Part shown: positions 45,001 through 51,000 of the stretch, piece after piece
Numbering within the stretch: position 1 is the first letter of the stretch
Layout: each line of letters starts with the position of its first letter
Assembly: GCF_056712565.1 (NCBI RefSeq)
Contig: NZ_CM160072.1
DNA length: 64,000 nt
Strand: one strand, 5' to 3'
Position numbers: made by a program

Positions 45001-48000
45001 GCAACTGGCAGACCAGATTGCACAGAGACCACTCAGGTAACAGGCGAGATATTTCCTGGTCGAGTTGAAGTATGCGATCTTCAATCTGCTCCAGACTTTG
45101 ACAATAGTGTTGAAAAGCAATCTGTTGAGATGGCTGACTAAATGATTGATTAGCTAACCAGGTTCGATGTTTTCCTGTCCAGTGCTTTCCTGCATAATGT
45201 TTGTCTGTTCGCAATAGCATGCTCAGAATTCGCTGTCGGGCAACTCTGCTGTCTCGTTTAGCTGCTGCACGGGCTCTGATTAGATCCCGCATAGCTTCAT
45301 GAGTCAGGTCAGGGATCCAGACAGGGGTAAGTTCTCCAGCCCGCAGTAACCTGGCGAGAGAAATTGCGTCCCGATGATCATTTTTGATTCTGTCTGTCGG
45401 TGATTTTGGTATGCGGGAAGGGGCAATAACCTGGCATTTTATATTCATCGCTGTGAGTTGATGATATAGCCCAAAACCACAGGGGCCAGCCTCATAGCAG
45501 GAAAGAATGTTTCCGTAAAGTCCCTGCAATTTCTGAAATAATCGACGTACAGCCTGGGCTTCGTTGTTAATCGTACCATAATAACGAACTTCGCCAAGCC
45601 GTTCAGGTGCAGCAATAGCAACCGCCAACGTTTCTTTATGCACATCCAGCCCGACGTAAGCCGCAATATTTTCCGAATGCATGATGACCTCCTCTGGAAT
45701 ATCCCACCAATGCTATAGTGAGTATATAAAGGTCATATCATCTTTATGTTCTTCGGCGGCGAGCGCAGTGCACTGTTGTATGGGCTTATCGGCACTTGCC
45801 TTCTGAACGACATTGATCCGGAAGCGTATCTGCGCCATATCCTGAGCGTACTGCCGGAATAACCTTCCAACCGTATTGATGAACTCCTGCCATGGAACGT
45901 AGTTCTCACCAATAAATAAGCATCAATATGATTCTCCATTAACGCTTACCTTTTCTCAGGCTATTTTTGCTTTTTTTTGCTTTTCCCCGCCACTTTATGG
46001 TGATTATCACATCAATATACATCGATAGATATTAACGTAACTGAAATGAGGTGAAGCATGAAATTTGAACGCCATCATGAAATATTGAAACGACTCAGTA
46101 AATTCGGTTCTGTAAAAGTATCCGATCTGTCCAATAGCCTCAATGTAACGAAAGAAACTATTCGATCAGATCTTAATGAACTTGCCAGGCTTGGCTATCT
46201 GACTCGATGTCATGGCGGTGCTTTTATCGTCCTAGACTCGCTTGATACTATTGCGAAAAATGAAATCGCTTATGCGCTTGAAAATTATGATACAGCCCAG
46301 GGAATAAAAAAAGGCCACTCAACTATGAAAAGTCAAGTATGCGTTATTGGTTCGTTTAATGTTGATATCATCAGTTATTTGCCGAGGCTTCCCACTATCG
46401 GAGAATCGCTTCTGGCAAGTAATTTTATATTTTCACCGGGGGGAAAAGGCTGTAACCAAGCGCTGGCAGCAAGCTTTGCCGATACTGATGTTTATTTCAT
46501 AACAAAAGTAGGTACAGATCACTTTAGTGATTATGCGATCAACTTTATGAATTCGTCTAAGATTTATAAAAGTATAATTTATCAAACGAAAGAAACGCAA
46601 ACCGGAACTGCCACGATCCTTGTTAATGAAGGTACTGGCGATAATGTTATTGCGATCTATCCCGGTGCCAACATGACAATGTCGTCCGATGAAATAACTA
46701 TTCAGAAAGAAGCGATTATTAATTCTGATGTCATACTTCTGCAGCTCGAAACAAATTATACCGCTCTGCAACAAGCGATCACATTGGCGCAAAAAAACAG
46801 TATCCCGGTCATTATTAACCCGGCACCCTATAATGATATCGTCAACGAACTTATTCAGGATGTTGATTATATCACCCCCAATGAAACAGAAGCTGGTTTA
46901 CTGTCCGGCATAGACGTACACGATCTTGAATCAGCTAAACGAGCTGCAGAAGCTATCCACAATAAAGGGGTAAAAAACACGGTTATCACGCTCGGTAGCA
47001 AGGGCTCGCTCGCATTTGATGGCAAAAAATTCATTCATTCGCCAGCGTTTCCAGCGGTCGTTAAAAATACGGCAGGAGCCGGGGATGCTTTTAACGGCGC
47101 TCTGGCATCAGGACTTGCGAAAGGAAAATCACTGGAATCAGCACTGTGTTATGCCAGCGCCTTTGCATCCCTAGCGGTGGAGACAAGCAATGCTTCCGAC
47201 ATGCCTGAACATGAATCTGTGATACATCGAATTCAGAGTATACATTATCAGCAAACTATTTTTACGCATTAAGAAGGGACAGAGAATGAATAACACCAAA
47301 AAATCACTAAAAGTGCTCTTTATTGGGGAATCCTGGCATATTCATATGATTCATTCAAAAGGATATGACAGTTTTACCTCAAGTAAATATGAAGAAGGTG
47401 CGACCTGGTTACTCCAATGTCTGAAAAATAGTCAGGTAGATGTCACCTATATGCCAGCACATACGGTACAAATTGCCTTCCCTGAAGATGTGGCACAGTT
47501 AGAACAATATGATGCCATCGTTATTAGTGATATTGGTAGTAATACTTTCCTGCTACAAAATGATACTTTTTATCAACTTCGCATAAAACCAAACGCTCTC
47601 GAACTGATTAAAGAATATGTGAATAACGGTGGTGGGTTATTGATGATTGGCGGCTATCTCTCATTCATGGGAATTGAAGCAAAAGCCAATTATAAAAATA
47701 CAGTTCTGGCTGATGTGCTCCCGGTTACGATGTTAGATGGTGACGATCGTGTCGAAAAACCAGAGGGTGTTATTGCACAGCCATCACAACCTGAACATCC
47801 AGTTATTAAAGGGTTCTCTGAATATCCTTTTTTCCTAGGTTATAACCGGGCGATCGCTAAAGAAAATGCTGAGGTGGTATTAACAATAAACAACGATCCA
47901 TTACTGGTCTTTGGTAACTATCACAACGGGAAAATAGCCTGCTTTATGAGTGACTGTTCACCGCACTGGGGTACACAGCAGTTTATGTCCTGGCCGTTCT

Positions 48001-51000
48001 ATACCGCGTTGTGGGTAAATATACTGACTCATATTGCAAGATAATAATAATGGGGTAACTCCAGTTACCCCATTTACTATAATAGAAGGATTGATGTATG
48101 AAAAAGAATAAGTACTCAACTCCCTTATGGATGCTTGCCACGATTCTTGCGGGTATGCTCTCCCCTATGCAATCAGCGGTGAATGGTCAATTAGGTCACT
48201 GGTTACAGGATGGTAATGCATGCGCAGTTATCTCCTTTGCCAGTGGTTTAGTCGTGATGTTTTTTATTATTATGGCGCGAAAAGAAACCCGGCAACAATT
48301 TGCGGCAATTCCTTCTCTGATTAAAAACCGAAAAGTTCCTCTCTGGAACTGGTTTGCCGGTCTCTGTGGAGCGATGGTGGTATTTTCTGAAGGCGCATCA
48401 GCCAGCGCACTCGGGGTCGCAACGTTTCAAACCGCACTGATCTCCGCGCTATTGCTGTCTGGTTTACTTTGCGATCGCTTTGGTATCGGTGTCGACGAGA
48501 AAAAATACTTTACCCCTTATCGCATCATCGGTGCATTATTTGCGGTTATTGCTACGATTTTTGTTGTGTCACCGCAGTGGCATTCTACCTCTTTCATCTT
48601 ACTTGCCATTCTTCCGTTCTTAGCTGGTTTGCTTGCAGGATGGCAGCCCGCTGGAAATGCAAAAGTAGCTGAAGCTACGGGATCCATGCTGGTTTCAATC
48701 ACCTGGAATTTCATCGTTGGATTTTGTGTTTTAGGCACAGCGCTAGCTATTCGTGTCGCATTAGGGCACGTCACTGTTCAATTACCAGATGTCTGGTGGA
48801 TGTATCTTGGCGGCCCGCTTGGACTAATGTCTATCGGTTTAATGGCCATTTTGGTCAGAGGTCTGGGGTTACTGATGCTGGGGGTTGCTTCAACGGCGGG
48901 CCAGTTACTGGGATCAGTATTGATTGACGTATTAATTCCATCGCTGGGCAATACCGTTTATCTGGTCACGATCATCGGAACACTGTTTGCACTGGTCGGT
49001 GCAATTGTTACCACTATTCCGGAATACAGAACCTCGAAAACAATGAAGAAAATGGAGGTATAATCATGAAAGATTATCTACAAACTGTGACGGGCCCCGT
49101 CGCCCGTGAAGATATGGGGCTAACACTTCCTCATGAACATCTGTTCAACGATCTTTCCTCTGTTGTGGATGCTCCTTGCTATCCTTTTTCACAACGGCTT
49201 GTTGATAAAAAAGTCACGGCAGAAATCCAGTGGGCATTAAAACACGATCCTTATTGCTGCGCTGATAATATGGACCGCAAACCTATTGAAGATGTGATCT
49301 TCGAAATTAATAACTTTATCTCGCTCGGTGGTCGCACCATTGTTGATGCCACAGGGTCTGAGTCTATCGGACGAGATGCGCAGGCATTACGAGAAGTCGC
49401 ATTAAAAACAGGTCTGAATATTGTTGCTTCCTCCGGTCCCTACCTGGAAAAATTTGAAAGCCAGAGAATTCATAAAACGGTTGATGAACTGGCGGCAACG
49501 ATCGATAAAGAATTGAATCAAGGGATTGGCGATACGGATATTCGTGCCGGAATGATCGGTGAAATAGGTGTCTCACCGACATTTACCGAAGCCGAGCATA
49601 ACAGCTTGCGGGCTGCCTCGCTGGCACAGATTAACAATCCTCATGTGGCGATGAATATTCACATGCCGGGCTGGCTTCGTCGCGGTGATGAAGTACTCGA
49701 CATTGTGTTAGGTGAAATGGGCGTCTCGCCAAATAAAGTCTCTCTCGCACACTCGGATCCGTCAGGAAAAGACGTGGCGTATCAGCGGAAAATGCTTGAT
49801 AAGGGTGTCTGGCTGGAATTCGACATGATTGGCCTAGACATTACCTTCCCGAAAGAGGGAATAGCGCCAGGGGTGCAGGAGACTGCCGATGCCGTCGCTC
49901 ATCTCATTGAGTTGGGATACGCCGATCAGCTTGTTCTCAGCCACGATGTCTTCCTTAAACAAATGTGGGCTAAAAATGGCGGTAATGGCTGGGGATTTGT
50001 TCCAGATGTTTTTCTGGCCTATCTGGCGGAGCGCGGCGTCGATAAAACGATCCTCAAAAAACTCTGTATCGATAATCCCGGACGATTATTGACCGCATAA
50101 AACCATTATCCCCCGGCACACTGCGCCGGGGGATGTCAATTAATACCCCGCCGTTAAATCATCCACCAAGCGCGAGTCGGATGCGCCGTACAACTCACCA
50201 TCCGACCCAACCATAATGCTTTGCGTGCTGCCCATCGCCTCATTCAGCGCCACTTTCTGACCTTTTGCTTCCAGCAGCTTGAGCGTATCCGGACTAAACC
50301 CTTTTCAACACGCAGCTAGTCCGGCAACCACTGATGGTGGAAACGAGGCGCATTGGTCGCTTCGGCAACATTCATTCCACAATTGATGCTGTTCACCACC
50401 ATTTGCAGCACGGTAGTGATGATTCAGCTACCGGTAACAAAGTGAGTACATAAAGGCCATACTGTCACGAACAGTGCAAAAGTGGCTCTTCCGCAACCTA
50501 GGTGAAGATTTTCATGCCAGTGGACTCATTACCCTCCGCCTAAGTAGTTCAAATCCGGCTCGACCATACATCTGGCGTATCAGCACCTTCAGGCGATTTA
50601 CATGACCTTCGACAACACCATTACTCCAGCGACTGCTGATTGCCTCACATATAGCCGCAGCATCAGCTTCCATCCCCGCAGCTACGCACCGAAGTTCTGC
50701 TGAGCCGCTTTCGTGAACTCGAGTGAACCAGCTGCTTAGCTGTGATTTATTTTAGGTTTTCAGAATACGGTAGAACTCGAGTACCAGTTGCTGTGCTATT
50801 TTCAACTCCGGTTCTTTTTCACACATCAGACTAATAAATCGGGATGCATAATTTTCTTCGCCCCTGATTATTCTCCAGGGCATCAACCAGCGGCTTACCC
50901 GGGACACTGAAGGAAGTCTTGCGGCAGTAGTAACCGGTGGGTTCCAGCCTTTACGCCATTTGGCAACAGTATCCCTGACGATGGTTTCACTGCCTGTCCC

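What the first reader, a model, noticed from the sequence alone, without database searches (positions are those of the whole stretch)
46058..50132. Catabolic-looking operon headed by a DeoR-HTH-PfkB kinase fusion
Four co-directional genes with short gaps and overlaps encode a DeoR-type HTH fused to a ribokinase-family kinase, a GATase1-fold protein, a duplicated-5-TM transporter and a phosphotriesterase-family hydrolase. A regulator-kinase fusion is unusual, since DeoR regulators normally carry a sugar-phosphate-binding domain, and could couple substrate phosphorylation to repression. The substrate (a sugar, lactone or amino-sugar derivative) is not evident from sequence. A decayed ggt paralogue converges on the same terminator.
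Basis: inference. Interest (0 to 1): 0.5.

Follow-up and report, generated by a model that had tools for sequence, protein, structure and literature searches.

The report
E. coli copy of rikA operon
These four genes are the E. coli island copy of the Salmonella rikA-STM3550 cluster, whose first gene was shown in 2026 to encode a ribose kinase; its fused DNA-binding head looks real and conserved, but the compound the operon breaks down is still unknown.

Summary
Four co-directional ORFs (46058-50100) encode an HTH_DeoR+PfkB fusion, a PF07090 "GATase1-like" protein, a doubled YdcZ-type DMT transporter and a PTE-family hydrolase. A ggt fragment follows on the other strand.

The cluster is not new. 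It is 100% identical to CFT073 and Nissle 1917, and about 35% of complete E. coli genomes carry it whole. It is the orthologue (about 80% amino-acid identity) of Salmonella STM3547-STM3550. STM3547 was published in June 2026 as the ribokinase RikA, and that paper notes the DeoR HTH and the conserved neighbourhood, Escherichia included. Gene 2 matches structure 2GK3. Gene 4 is 74% identical to the esterase Pmi1525.

What I add:
- **HTH is real.** It is under purifying selection, has a strong Shine-Dalgarno at M1, and is kept in 12 lineages. The paper suggested the protein starts at M90.
- **Shared promoter layout.** All 12 fusion-headed operons carry 10-bp direct repeats upstream of a CRP-like site.
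- **Variable cassettes.** The fusion heads different catabolic cassettes, including nucleoside hydrolase and ADP-ribosylglycohydrolase ones.
- **Recurring quartet.** PF07090 travels with a PfkB kinase, a deacylase-type hydrolase and a transporter, also in Bacillota.
- **ggt fragment.** It is a remnant carried over from a donor locus.

The substrate and the HTH's regulatory role remain untested.

The parts
45964..45983 (+). Perfect 10-bp tandem direct repeat TTTTTGCTTT x2. Candidate operator of the HTH-kinase (inferred).
   Evidence: Nearly invariant in 7 orthologous loci whose flanks have diverged. Unique in the 64-kb window, with 0 of 100 shuffles giving a match. Paralogous fusion operons carry different 10-bp-period repeats at the same position.
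45996..46011 (+). CRP-like site TATGG-TGATTA-TCACA (8 of 10 matches to TGTGA-N6-TCACA), centred 54 nt before the ATG.
   Evidence: Present with 7-9 of 10 matches, centred 54-58 nt before the ATG, in 12 of 12 fusion-headed operons. The background rate of sites with >=8 of 10 matches is 3.4e-4 per position. Function is inferred.
46030..46035 (+). Candidate -10 hexamer TATTAA with a conserved ATTA core. It would place the CRP-like site near -40 (class II geometry).
   Evidence: The ATTA core is conserved in the 7-way upstream alignment. This is inference only; the consensus scan did not call it.
46048..46054 (+). Strong Shine-Dalgarno GAGGTGA, 3 nt before the M1 ATG.
   Evidence: Sequence read. 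GAGGT is conserved in all 7 orthologues.
46058..47272 (+). rikA orthologue. The DeoR-type wHTH spans residues 5-56 (nt 46070-46225), the linker residues 57-91, and the PfkB ribokinase domain residues 92-382 (nt 46331-47203). The catalytic Asp is D343.
   Evidence: It is 80% identical to Salmonella RikA/STM3547, which is a ribokinase in vivo and in vitro (PMC13432705).
46325..46327 (+). Internal Met90 codon, with an SD-like AAGG 10 nt upstream. Probable second start giving a kinase-only isoform.
   Evidence: A 35-kDa product was observed in Salmonella (PMC13432705). The Met is absent in the Proteus locus L012.
47286..48044 (+). PF07090 'GATase1-like' protein, orthologue of STM3548 (PDB 2GK3). 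It lacks the amidotransferase nucleophile Cys. Enzyme of unknown reaction.
48049..48074 (+). Intergenic hairpin (11-bp stem) between genes 2 and 3, followed at once by a perfect TATAAT at 48078-48083. Possible partial terminator plus internal promoter.
   Evidence: BioCyc predicts two transcription units in Salmonella (PMC13432705).
48098..49063 (+). DMT-superfamily transporter made of two YdcZ-type repeats.
   Evidence: RefSeq annotates it as a 'DMT family transporter'.
49066..50100 (+). PTE/PTER-family binuclear-metal hydrolase, 74% identical to Pmi1525 of Proteus mirabilis (PDB 3RHG/4QSF). Metal ligands H23, H25, E166, H199, H229, D294.
50108..50134 (.). GC-rich hairpin between the convergent PTE gene and the ggt fragment. 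The T-run lies only on the - strand side.
50140..50433 (-). 3' fragment of a gamma-glutamyltransferase gene (pseudogene), a remnant of the donor locus.
   Evidence: RefSeq annotation. It is 92% identical to native E. coli ggt and 81-83.5% to Salmonella and Citrobacter ggt, where an intact ggt abuts the cluster.

Best explanation
This is the E. coli orthologue of the Salmonella rikA-STM3548-STM3549-STM3550 cluster. It was carried into a uropathogenic-type genomic island from an Escherichia-like donor, where it sat next to ggt. I read it as a catabolite-controlled salvage or catabolic operon for a ribose-bearing compound.

- **Shown for the 80% orthologue:** the PfkB domain of gene 1 phosphorylates D-ribose with ATP, using Asp343 as the catalytic base.
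- **Shown here:** the N-terminal DeoR-type HTH is a selected, translated part of the same protein.
- **Inferred, regulation:** the full-length protein is a one-component enzyme-regulator. It binds the 10-bp direct repeats upstream of a CRP-dependent promoter, and it responds to sugar and/or ATP binding in its kinase domain. Internal initiation at Met90 also gives a kinase-only isoform.
- **Inferred, pathway:** the YdcZ-type transporter imports the substrate. The PTER-like hydrolase removes an acyl (ester or N-acyl) group. The PF07090 enzyme carries out a further cleavage. The result is ribose or a 5-phosphoriboside, which RikA traps for the pentose-phosphate pathway.
For: **Identity and orthology.**
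- 100% identity to CFT073, Nissle 1917 and ABU83972; the whole cluster is in 1905-1907 of 5426 complete E. coli genomes.
- The same four genes in the same order occur in Salmonella, Citrobacter, Klebsiella, Budvicia and Proteus.

**Kinase.**
- It scores 285 bits on the ribokinase equivalog model. The ribose-binding and catalytic motifs are intact.
- The orthologue supports growth on ribose, and D343A abolishes this (PMC13432705).

**HTH is real.**
- Pfam E 4.9e-15.
- dN/dS is 0.05-0.18 over codons 1-60, with 78-83% amino-acid identity to Salmonella and Citrobacter, the same as the kinase domain.
- No stop codon separates HTH and kinase in the 11 lineages aligned; the SPI-2 orf408 product also carries both domains.
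- M1 has the Shine-Dalgarno GAGGTGA.
- The Proteus locus has no in-frame start codon near position 90, so there only the fusion can be made.

**Regulator role.**
- The fusion is always the first gene of otherwise different cassettes: nucleoside hydrolase + NupC; ABC transporter + ADP-ribosylglycohydrolase; aldolase + DUF386 + MFS; TRAP + aldolase + a second PfkB; and the SPI-2 orf408 set.
- All 12 promoters share direct repeats plus a CRP-like site at a fixed distance. The repeats differ between paralogue groups, while the CRP-like site does not.

**Pathway.**
- PF07090 recurs with a PfkB kinase, a hydrolase (PTE, alpha/beta-hydrolase or M20 peptidase) and a transporter (DMT, APC permease or Rbs-type ABC) in Enterobacterales and Bacillota.
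- Gene 4 matches the PTER subfamily over its full length. Mammalian PTER is an N-acetyltaurine amidohydrolase (PMC11374699).
- Pmi1525 has metal-stimulated esterase activity (cited in PMC5341072).
Against: - In Salmonella, a C-terminally tagged protein expressed from its native upstream region ran at about 35 kDa, which fits a start at M90. RikA(90-404) alone supports growth on ribose (PMC13432705).
- There is no DNA-binding or regulation experiment for any member of the fusion family.
- The direct repeats lie upstream of the CRP-like site, an unusual place for a simple repressor. In the rikA clade they are T-rich and could act as an UP element.
- The CRP-like site could itself be the HTH operator.
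- RikA's Km for ribose (2 mM) is like that of RbsK. Free ribose could therefore be the true substrate, and the other genes could be unrelated.
- A hairpin plus a TATAAT between genes 2 and 3, and BioCyc's two predicted units, allow two separate transcripts.
Confidence: 0.6

Rival explanations
1. The HTH is an annotation artefact or an evolutionary relic. The real gene starts at Met90 and encodes a plain third ribokinase, and no regulator is involved.
For: A 35-kDa product is made from the native upstream region in Salmonella, and RikA(90-404) is fully functional on ribose (PMC13432705). Met90 aligns with the start of RbsK. It has an SD-like AAGG or GAGG 9-10 nt upstream in five of the six close rikA orthologues that carry Met90.
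Against: Codons 1-60 show dN/dS of 0.05-0.18 and are as conserved as the kinase domain. The HTH profile match is kept in homologues down to 35% identity, across about 20 clusters. A strong conserved Shine-Dalgarno sits at M1. The Proteus orthologue has no start codon near position 90. The 35-kDa band was assigned by mass only, so it could be a second isoform or a product of linker proteolysis.
Confidence: 0.15
2. Ribose itself is the substrate, and genes 2-4 are a functionally separate module (for example detoxification or export of esters or organophosphonates) that merely travels with rikA.
For: RikA's Km for ribose is similar to that of RbsK. Pfam labels YdcZ a 'putative exporter'. Pmi1525 is reported as a non-specific esterase / methylphosphonate esterase (references). 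A hairpin plus TATAAT lies between genes 2 and 3.
Against: The four genes stay together in the same order across six genera, and also when moved on mobile elements such as the Klebsiella relaxase-linked element and the E. coli island. A paralogous quartet in SPI-2 and the Bacillota clusters repeat the kinase + PF07090 + hydrolase + transporter logic with non-homologous hydrolases and transporters. RikA's kcat/Km is about 50-fold (ribose) to 90-fold (ATP) below that of RbsK, and the authors themselves suggest that ribose may be an off-target substrate.
Confidence: 0.15
3. The kinase acts first on an intact riboside, as pseudouridine kinase PsuK does. The hydrolases then work on the 5'-phosphorylated compound, and free ribose is only a side substrate.
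For: RikA has a low kcat on ribose (337 per min against 27,828 for RbsK). The PfkB family includes riboside kinases, and pseudouridine kinase and nucleoside kinase profiles match the protein. The rikA clade has KNT in place of the VDT of RbsK just before the anion hole.
Against: Eight of ten ribose-contact residues are conserved with RbsK (PMC13432705). In paralogous cassettes, nucleoside hydrolase or ARH-family enzymes would release free ribose before the kinase acts.
Confidence: 0.1

Closest known systems
Salmonella Typhimurium RikA (STM3547) and the STM3547-STM3550 cluster (McCormick, Jabbar & Escalante-Semerena, Mol Microbiol 2026; PMC13432705)
   Same: Orthologous. Gene 1 is 80% identical, and the four-gene order and the domains are identical. 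D343 and Met90 are conserved. The paper lists Escherichia among the genera that carry the cluster. One RefSeq E. coli record already uses the gene name rikA.
   Different: In Salmonella the cluster is chromosomal, between a yhhY-like acetyltransferase gene and an intact ggt. In E. coli it lies in an IS-rich island next to a 294-bp ggt remnant. The nucleotide identity is only 76%.
E. coli ribokinase RbsK (PDB 1GQT/1RKD)
   Same: It is the best solved-structure match for residues 94-380 (E 2e-52). The ribose, anion-hole and catalytic-Asp motifs are shared.
   Different: RbsK has no HTH and lies inside the rbs operon under the separate LacI-type regulator RbsR. The rikA product falls just below the NCBIfam ribokinase equivalog cut-off (285.4 against 299.65 bits). 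It has N in place of the D that precedes the anion hole.
Pmi1525 (Proteus mirabilis) and Rsp3690 esterases; mammalian PTER N-acetyltaurine hydrolase
   Same: Gene 4 is 74% identical to Pmi1525, which is the orthologous last gene of the Proteus cluster: the L012 PTE is 98.8% identical to Pmi1525. There is a full-length match to Rsp3690 (3K2G) and to a PTER-type structure (9EFA).
   Different: The physiological substrates of Pmi1525 and Rsp3690 are unknown. PTER acts on N-acetyltaurine and N-acetyl-beta-alanine. No activity was tested here.
STM3548 (PDB 2GK3), STM1381 (3SOZ) and ThuA-like proteins
   Different: These are structural-genomics entries without a function. The Cys of true amidotransferases is replaced by an invariant Tyr124.
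Enzyme-regulator fusions and sugar-kinase-like regulators: NadR, BirA, ROK-family NagC/Mlc, E. coli YeiI (own knowledge, not tested here)
   Same: An HTH is joined to a metabolic enzyme or kinase fold that senses the pathway metabolite. The YeiI profile (PRK09954, HTH + PfkB) matches the kinase part.
   Different: NagC and Mlc have lost kinase activity, whereas RikA is an active kinase. The YeiI HTH is not detectably related. No regulatory data exist for the DeoR-HTH-PfkB family.
Canonical DeoR-family repressors (DeoR, GlpR, AgaR)
   Same: The N-terminal HTH_DeoR domain is shared; the AgaR profile matches residues 3-61 at E 2.7e-11. The candidate operator is made of 10-bp direct repeats, as for several DeoR-family members (own knowledge).
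   Different: The DeoRC sugar-phosphate-binding domain (PF00455) is absent and is replaced by an active PfkB kinase.

Membership tests
PfkB / ribokinase family | PfkB domain profile match | tested here: met
   PF00294 E 5.3e-65 over residues 92-382.
PfkB / ribokinase family | N-terminal GG(K)G signature, NXXE motif, and C-terminal anion hole GAGD with the catalytic Asp | tested here: met
   GGKGCNQ, PNETE and AGAGD (D343) align with RbsK G41-N46, NETE and D255.
PfkB / ribokinase family | NCBIfam ribokinase equivalog score above the curated cut-off | tested here: not met
   TIGR02152 gives 285.4 bits against a cut-off of 299.65. NF008353 gives 255 bits against 341. The protein is ribokinase-like but outside the curated RbsK equivalog.
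PfkB / ribokinase family | ATP-dependent phosphorylation of D-ribose | not testable with these tools
   Shown for the 80%-identical Salmonella orthologue (PMC13432705).
DeoR family of transcription regulators | N-terminal DeoR-type winged HTH | tested here: met
   PF08220 E 4.9e-15 over residues 5-56. The AgaR profile matches residues 3-61.
DeoR family of transcription regulators | C-terminal DeoRC sugar-phosphate-binding effector domain (PF00455) | tested here: not met
   There is no PF00455 match; the C-terminal part is PfkB.
DeoR family of transcription regulators | Sequence-specific DNA binding and control of the adjacent operon | not testable with these tools
   The evidence is indirect only: purifying selection on the HTH and conserved direct repeats upstream.
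Phosphotriesterase (PTE/PTER) family, amidohydrolase superfamily | PF02126 profile match and the binuclear-metal ligand set (HxH, Glu or carboxy-Lys, His, His, Asp) | tested here: met
   PF02126 E 2e-46. Ligands H23, H25, E166, H199, H229 and D294 are present, and the motifs around them are identical in Pmi1525.
Phosphotriesterase (PTE/PTER) family, amidohydrolase superfamily | Organophosphate triesterase (OPH) function | tested here: not met
   The OPH equivalog scores 82.6 bits against a cut-off of 500, and phospho-furanose lactonase scores 42.7 against 630. The nearest characterised relative is an esterase.
Class I glutamine amidotransferases | GATase1 fold | tested here: met
Class I glutamine amidotransferases | Catalytic Cys at the nucleophile elbow, with the His-Glu triad | tested here: not met
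   By my motif comparison with the canonical G-x-C-x-G elbow (own knowledge, not a structural superposition), the elbow position is an invariant Tyr124 in 32 sequences. The only invariant Cys is C224, in the motif D223-C224-x-x-H227. The RefSeq name 'glutamine amidotransferase' is therefore not supported.
DMT superfamily, YdcZ type | Two tandem YdcZ (PF04657) repeats | tested here: met
   Residues 10-154 (E 4e-30) and 169-303 (E 1e-15). The transport direction and the substrate were not tested.
CRP-dependent (class II) promoters | TGTGA-N6-TCACA site centred near -41.5 | tested here: inconclusive
   The site matches 8 of 10 positions and is conserved at 54-58 nt before the ATG in 12 operons. 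The transcription start is unknown, so the position relative to +1 is inferred.

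The most novel reading that the evidence does not exclude
DeoR-HTH-ribokinase fusions form a family of active-enzyme one-component regulators. Each heads a different cassette, several of them with enzymes that could release ribose from a conjugate (nucleosides, ADP-ribosyl-type conjugates, an unknown N-acyl or ester conjugate). Each would bind paralogue-specific 10-bp direct repeats next to a shared CRP site. Many would be made as two isoforms, a regulator-kinase from M1 and a kinase-only form from M90, which could tune autoregulation. 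Within this scheme the highly conserved PF07090 protein (60-66% identical between E. coli and Bacillota) would be a new enzyme. It would belong to a cross-phylum pathway that also uses a deacylase and a ribokinase.
Probability: 0.3. Interest if true: 0.6.

Novelty: already known. Interest (0 to 1): 0.3.

Why it matters
The cluster is whole in about a third of complete E. coli genomes, including CFT073, UTI89, Nissle 1917 and ATCC 25922.

A CFT073 transposon mutant in c2492 ('putative carbohydrate/ribose kinase') ranked among the strongest fitness defects in a mouse bacteraemia screen (PMC3855560). c2492 is very probably this gene. The nutrient this operon captures in the host could therefore matter for extraintestinal E. 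coli and for Salmonella.

The kinase activity and the neighbourhood are published. The open questions are the real substrate, the reaction of the PF07090 enzyme, and whether the fused HTH makes RikA a self-regulating enzyme. The conserved operator-like repeats and the two-start architecture described here make that last question directly testable.

Tried and rejected
- **Genome-collection scan.** The search for related loci on genome contigs with the single protein returned only two loci (Citrobacter and S. diarizonae), because the peptide patterns were too strict. Contexts were gathered with the look-up of encoding contigs instead.
- **Literature by locus tag.** A search for 'c2490' with 'CFT073' found nothing. 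A whole-word search of c2489-c2494 gave mostly noise, plus one relevant hit for c2492.
- **Raushel papers.** The papers on Pmi1525 and Rsp3690 (PMC4477287, PMC4045322) are not held. Their content is cited only through PMC5341072 and from my own knowledge.
- **NCBIfam.** It has no model for genes 2 and 3.
- **PF07090 literature.** The search gave nothing functional.
- **Sigma-54 and alternative sigma-70 readings of the T-rich repeats.** I considered both and rejected them. There is no GG-N10-GC element, and no acceptable -10 at 16-18 bp.
- **Phospho-sugar lactonase reading of gene 4 (Lmo2620-type).** I considered it. The profile score is far below the cut-off (42.7 against 630 bits), and the nearest relatives are esterases or amidohydrolases.
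- **ggt fragment as an internal duplication.** Rejected, because synteny with an intact ggt in Salmonella and Citrobacter explains it.
- **Lower synonymous divergence in codons 1-91.** pS is about 0.5 against 0.8 for E. coli versus Salmonella or Citrobacter. S. diarizonae does not reproduce this, so I do not build on it.

Full report
**1.

ORF listing shows four co-directional + strand ORFs: 46058-47272 (404 aa), 47286-48044 (252 aa), 48098-49063 (321 aa) and 49066-50100 (344 aa). The gaps are 13, 53 and 2 nt, with no overlaps in this copy.

- Gene 1: HTH_DeoR at residues 5-56 (E 4.9e-15) fused to PfkB at 92-382 (E 5e-65).
- Gene 2: GATase1_like PF07090 (E 2e-112).
- Gene 3: two YdcZ-type DMT repeats.
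- Gene 4: PTE PF02126 (E 2e-46).

The kinase domain scores 285 bits on the NCBIfam ribokinase equivalog, just under the 299.65 cut-off. It aligns with E. coli RbsK (E 2e-52) with the ribose-binding, NXXE and GAGD/Asp motifs intact. The region has lower G+C (0.39-0.47) than its flanks. It is bracketed by IS2, an IS110-family element and an ISL3 pseudogene.

**2. What it is.**

The 4.4-kb segment is 100% identical to CFT073, Nissle 1917, ABU 83972, ATCC 25922 and UTI89. It is complete in 1905-1907 of 5426 complete E. coli genomes, and about 900 more carry remnants. In CFT073 it lies in the island beside cobU and a TonB-dependent receptor.

Homologue search and gene-context look-ups show the same four genes in the same order in Salmonella enterica, Citrobacter, Klebsiella michiganensis (next to a relaxase), Budvicia and a Proteus mirabilis-type locus. 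That last locus is assigned by its PTE, which is 98.8% identical to Pmi1525.

In Salmonella the cluster sits between a yhhY-like acetyltransferase gene and an intact ggt, followed by a DUF2756 gene (yhhA by my reading), a GDPD-family gene and ABC-transporter genes that I read as ugpQ and ugpCE. This is STM3547-STM3550.

**3. It is already in the literature.**

McCormick, Jabbar and Escalante-Semerena (Mol Microbiol, June 2026; PMC13432705) named STM3547 RikA. Their findings:
- rikA alone supports growth on ribose.
- The purified protein phosphorylates D-ribose (Km 2.0 mM, kcat 337 per min). Its kcat/Km is about 50-fold (ribose) to 90-fold (ATP) below that of RbsK.
- D343A is inactive.
- Deoxyribose, xylose and xylulose are poor substrates.
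- They noted the DeoR HTH. A C-terminally tagged protein made from the native upstream region ran at about 35 kDa, which they read as a start at Met90. They stated that a longer isoform cannot be excluded.
- They noted that the four-gene neighbourhood is conserved in Citrobacter, Escherichia, Budvicia and Proteus.
- They noted that the three downstream genes are uncharacterised, and that ribose may be an off-target substrate.

One RefSeq E. coli record already carries the gene name rikA.

Other parts also have known relatives. Gene 2 matches the structural-genomics entry 2GK3 (STM3548; E 5e-146) and 3SOZ (STM1381). Gene 4 is 74% identical to Pmi1525 (3RHG/4QSF). Pmi1525 is cited as a metal-stimulated esterase of the PTE family (PMC5341072).

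**4. What the analysis adds: the HTH is real.**

- Across E. coli versus Salmonella, Citrobacter and S. diarizonae, codons 1-60 have dN/dS of 0.05-0.18. Their amino-acid identity is 78-83%, equal to the kinase domain at 81-83%.
- The reading frame is open from HTH to kinase in all 11 lineages aligned, down to 47% identity. The SPI-2 orf408 product also carries both domains.
- Full-length fusions form about 20 separate 50%-identity clusters in a 1.84-billion-protein library. Most keep the GAGD motif.
- M1 is preceded by GAGGTGA.
- Met90 is preceded by an SD-like AAGG or GAGG 9-10 nt upstream in five of the six close rikA orthologues that carry it. A kinase-only isoform from internal initiation is therefore plausible.
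- The Proteus locus has no in-frame ATG, GTG or TTG there. In that lineage only the fusion can supply the kinase.

The published 35-kDa species is thus best read as one of two isoforms, or as a product of linker cleavage. It is not evidence that the HTH is unexpressed.

**5. What the analysis adds: promoter architecture.**

The upstream regions of seven orthologues are diverged, except for a block containing three elements:
- a perfect tandem repeat TTTTTGCTTT x2 (45964-45983);
- a CRP-like site TATGG-N6-TCACA (45996-46011);
- a conserved ATTA, and then the Shine-Dalgarno.

The 20-mer repeat is unique in the window, with 0 of 100 shuffles giving a match.

Anchoring on the CRP-like site shows the same layout in all 12 fusion-headed operons examined. 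Each has a site with 7-9 of 10 matches centred 54-58 nt before the ATG, and 10-bp-period direct repeats 14-36 nt further upstream. Sites with >=8 of 10 matches occur at 3.4e-4 per position in the window.

The repeats differ between paralogue groups: TTTTTGCTTT, ACTTCCGTTT and GGTTACTTCC-type. The CRP-like site keeps one consensus. That pattern is expected if the repeats are the cognate operators and the palindrome is bound by the shared host CRP. This is inference; no transcription start or binding data exist.

**6. What the analysis adds: gene-context logic.**

The fusion is always the first gene, but the cassette behind it varies:

| Lineage | Genes behind the fusion |
|---|---|
| Salmonella | IU-nucleoside hydrolase + NupC-type transporter + MFS + M20 peptidase |
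| S. bongori | ABC transporter + ADP-ribosylglycohydrolase-family enzyme |
| Rahnella, Pectobacterium | DHDPS-type aldolase + DUF386 + MFS |
| Distant member (35% identity) | TRAP transporter + 2-hydroxyacid dehydrogenase + aldolase + a second plain PfkB |
| SPI-2, next to ttrA | orf408 (fusion) + STM1381 (PF07090) + alpha/beta-hydrolase + APC permease |

The SPI-2 set is a paralogous quartet. It has the same logic as the rikA cluster but a non-homologous hydrolase and transporter.

In Bacillota, PF07090 proteins are 59-66% identical to the E. coli protein. They sit with a LacI regulator, M20 peptidases and Rbs-type ABC transporters. The Neobacillus locus also has plain PfkB kinases; none was seen on the short Paenibacillus contig.

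The recurring set is therefore ribokinase-type kinase + PF07090 + deacylase-type hydrolase + importer.

Gene 4 matches Pmi1525, Rsp3690 and a PTER-type structure (9EFA) over its full length. Bacterial organophosphate PTEs match only from residue ~75 on. Mammalian PTER is an N-acetyltaurine / N-acetyl-beta-alanine amidohydrolase (PMC11374699, PMC13311154). It carries a helical insertion that bacterial PTEs lack (PMC12873775).

Together this points to a ribose-bearing ester or N-acyl conjugate as the substrate. The compound is not identified.

**7. The PF07090 protein.**

Thirty-two sequences from two phyla share 79 invariant positions. By motif comparison, the position of the amidotransferase nucleophile Cys is an invariant Tyr124. 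The invariant motif D223-C224-x-x-H227 lies where I expect the triad His of true amidotransferases, judged from the sequence pattern only.

The RefSeq name 'glutamine amidotransferase' is therefore unsupported. It is an enzyme-like protein of unknown reaction.

**8. The ggt fragment and terminator.**

The - strand fragment at 50140-50433 is 92% identical to native E. coli ggt. It is 81-83.5% identical to Salmonella and Citrobacter ggt, whereas the cluster itself is about 76% identical to those genera. In Salmonella and Citrobacter an intact ggt converges on the PTE gene.

The fragment is therefore a remnant of the donor locus, probably an Escherichia-like lineage, and not a decayed internal duplicate.

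The hairpin at 50108-50134 has its T-run only on the ggt side. A second hairpin (48049-48074) followed by a perfect TATAAT (48078-83) lies between genes 2 and 3. It may give partial termination and an internal promoter, in line with BioCyc's two predicted units.

**9. Verdict.**

As a discovery, however, it is already known.

The kinase is the published RikA orthologue. The neighbourhood, the HTH and the unknown downstream functions are all discussed in the 2026 paper. The PTE and PF07090 proteins have solved structures.

The conservation, start-codon and promoter analyses here strengthen it.

Two matters remain interesting: the unknown substrate, and the possible role of the operon in vivo. 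On the second, a c2492 'putative carbohydrate/ribose kinase' transposon mutant had a fitness factor of 10.95 in a CFT073 bacteraemia screen (PMC3855560). The assignment of c2492 to this gene rests on annotation and numbering, and is not verified.

Noticed in passing
window 42598-45682 and 50752-51609: The cluster is boxed in by insertion sequences: IS2 (TnpA/TnpB, 42598-43871, - strand), an IS110-family RNA-guided transposase gene (44549-45682, - strand) and an ISL3 transposase pseudogene (about 50750-52130). CFT073 has only an IS66 remnant just upstream of the kinase, so this window comes from a strain with extra IS insertions there.
   Followed up: partly
window 52415-53985: Two overlapping zinc-ribbon protein genes (52415-52912 and 52813-53214, - strand) and an 'inovirus Gp2 family' gene (53380-53985, - strand) lie downstream in the island. 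RefSeq annotates them, but NCBIfam has no match.
   Followed up: no
window 48049-48083: An 11-bp-stem hairpin sits directly after the gene 2 stop codon, followed at once by a perfect TATAAT. It is a possible attenuator or internal promoter that splits the cluster into 2+2 genes.
   Followed up: partly
window 46058-46330 (codons 1-91 of gene 1): Synonymous divergence from Salmonella and Citrobacter is lower here (pS about 0.5) than in the kinase domain (pS about 0.8). S. diarizonae does not show this. The cause could be embedded signals for the Met90 start, or recombination.
   Followed up: no
L016 6763-11055 (Salmonella SPI-2, downstream of ttrA): A paralogous quartet lies next to the tetrathionate reductase genes: HTH_DeoR-PfkB (408 aa), PF07090 (STM1381, PDB 3SOZ), an alpha/beta-hydrolase and an APC amino-acid permease. 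It has the same logic as the rikA cluster with non-homologous hydrolase and transporter.
   Followed up: partly
L014 8001-12238; L015 8001-12048; L019 7001-14051: In Rahnella, Pectobacterium and a distant lineage, the HTH-PfkB fusion heads sialic-acid-like cassettes (DHDPS-type aldolase, DUF386, and an MFS or TRAP transporter). L019 also has a second plain PfkB kinase. This suggests that some fusions act mainly as sensors.
   Followed up: no
L017 5931-16532; L018 261-8171 (Bacillota): PF07090 proteins that are 59-66% identical to the E. coli protein sit in LacI-controlled clusters with M20 peptidases and Rbs-type ABC transporters. The Neobacillus locus L017 also has PfkB kinases and a BtpA-family gene. 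This conservation across phyla is unusually high for an uncharacterised protein.
   Followed up: partly
CFT073 c2492 (probably = window 46058-47272): A transposon mutant in c2492, 'putative carbohydrate/ribose kinase', had the sixth-highest fitness defect (10.95) in a mouse bacteraemia screen of CFT073, and a second c2492 entry is listed in Table S2 (PMC3855560). It was a primary screen only, and the mapping of the old locus tag to this gene was not verified.
   Followed up: partly
L005/L006 12220-15440 (Klebsiella michiganensis): The Klebsiella copy of the four-gene cluster lies next to a relaxase/NikA-like mobilisation module. This shows that the cluster also moves on conjugative or mobilisable elements.
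   Followed up: no
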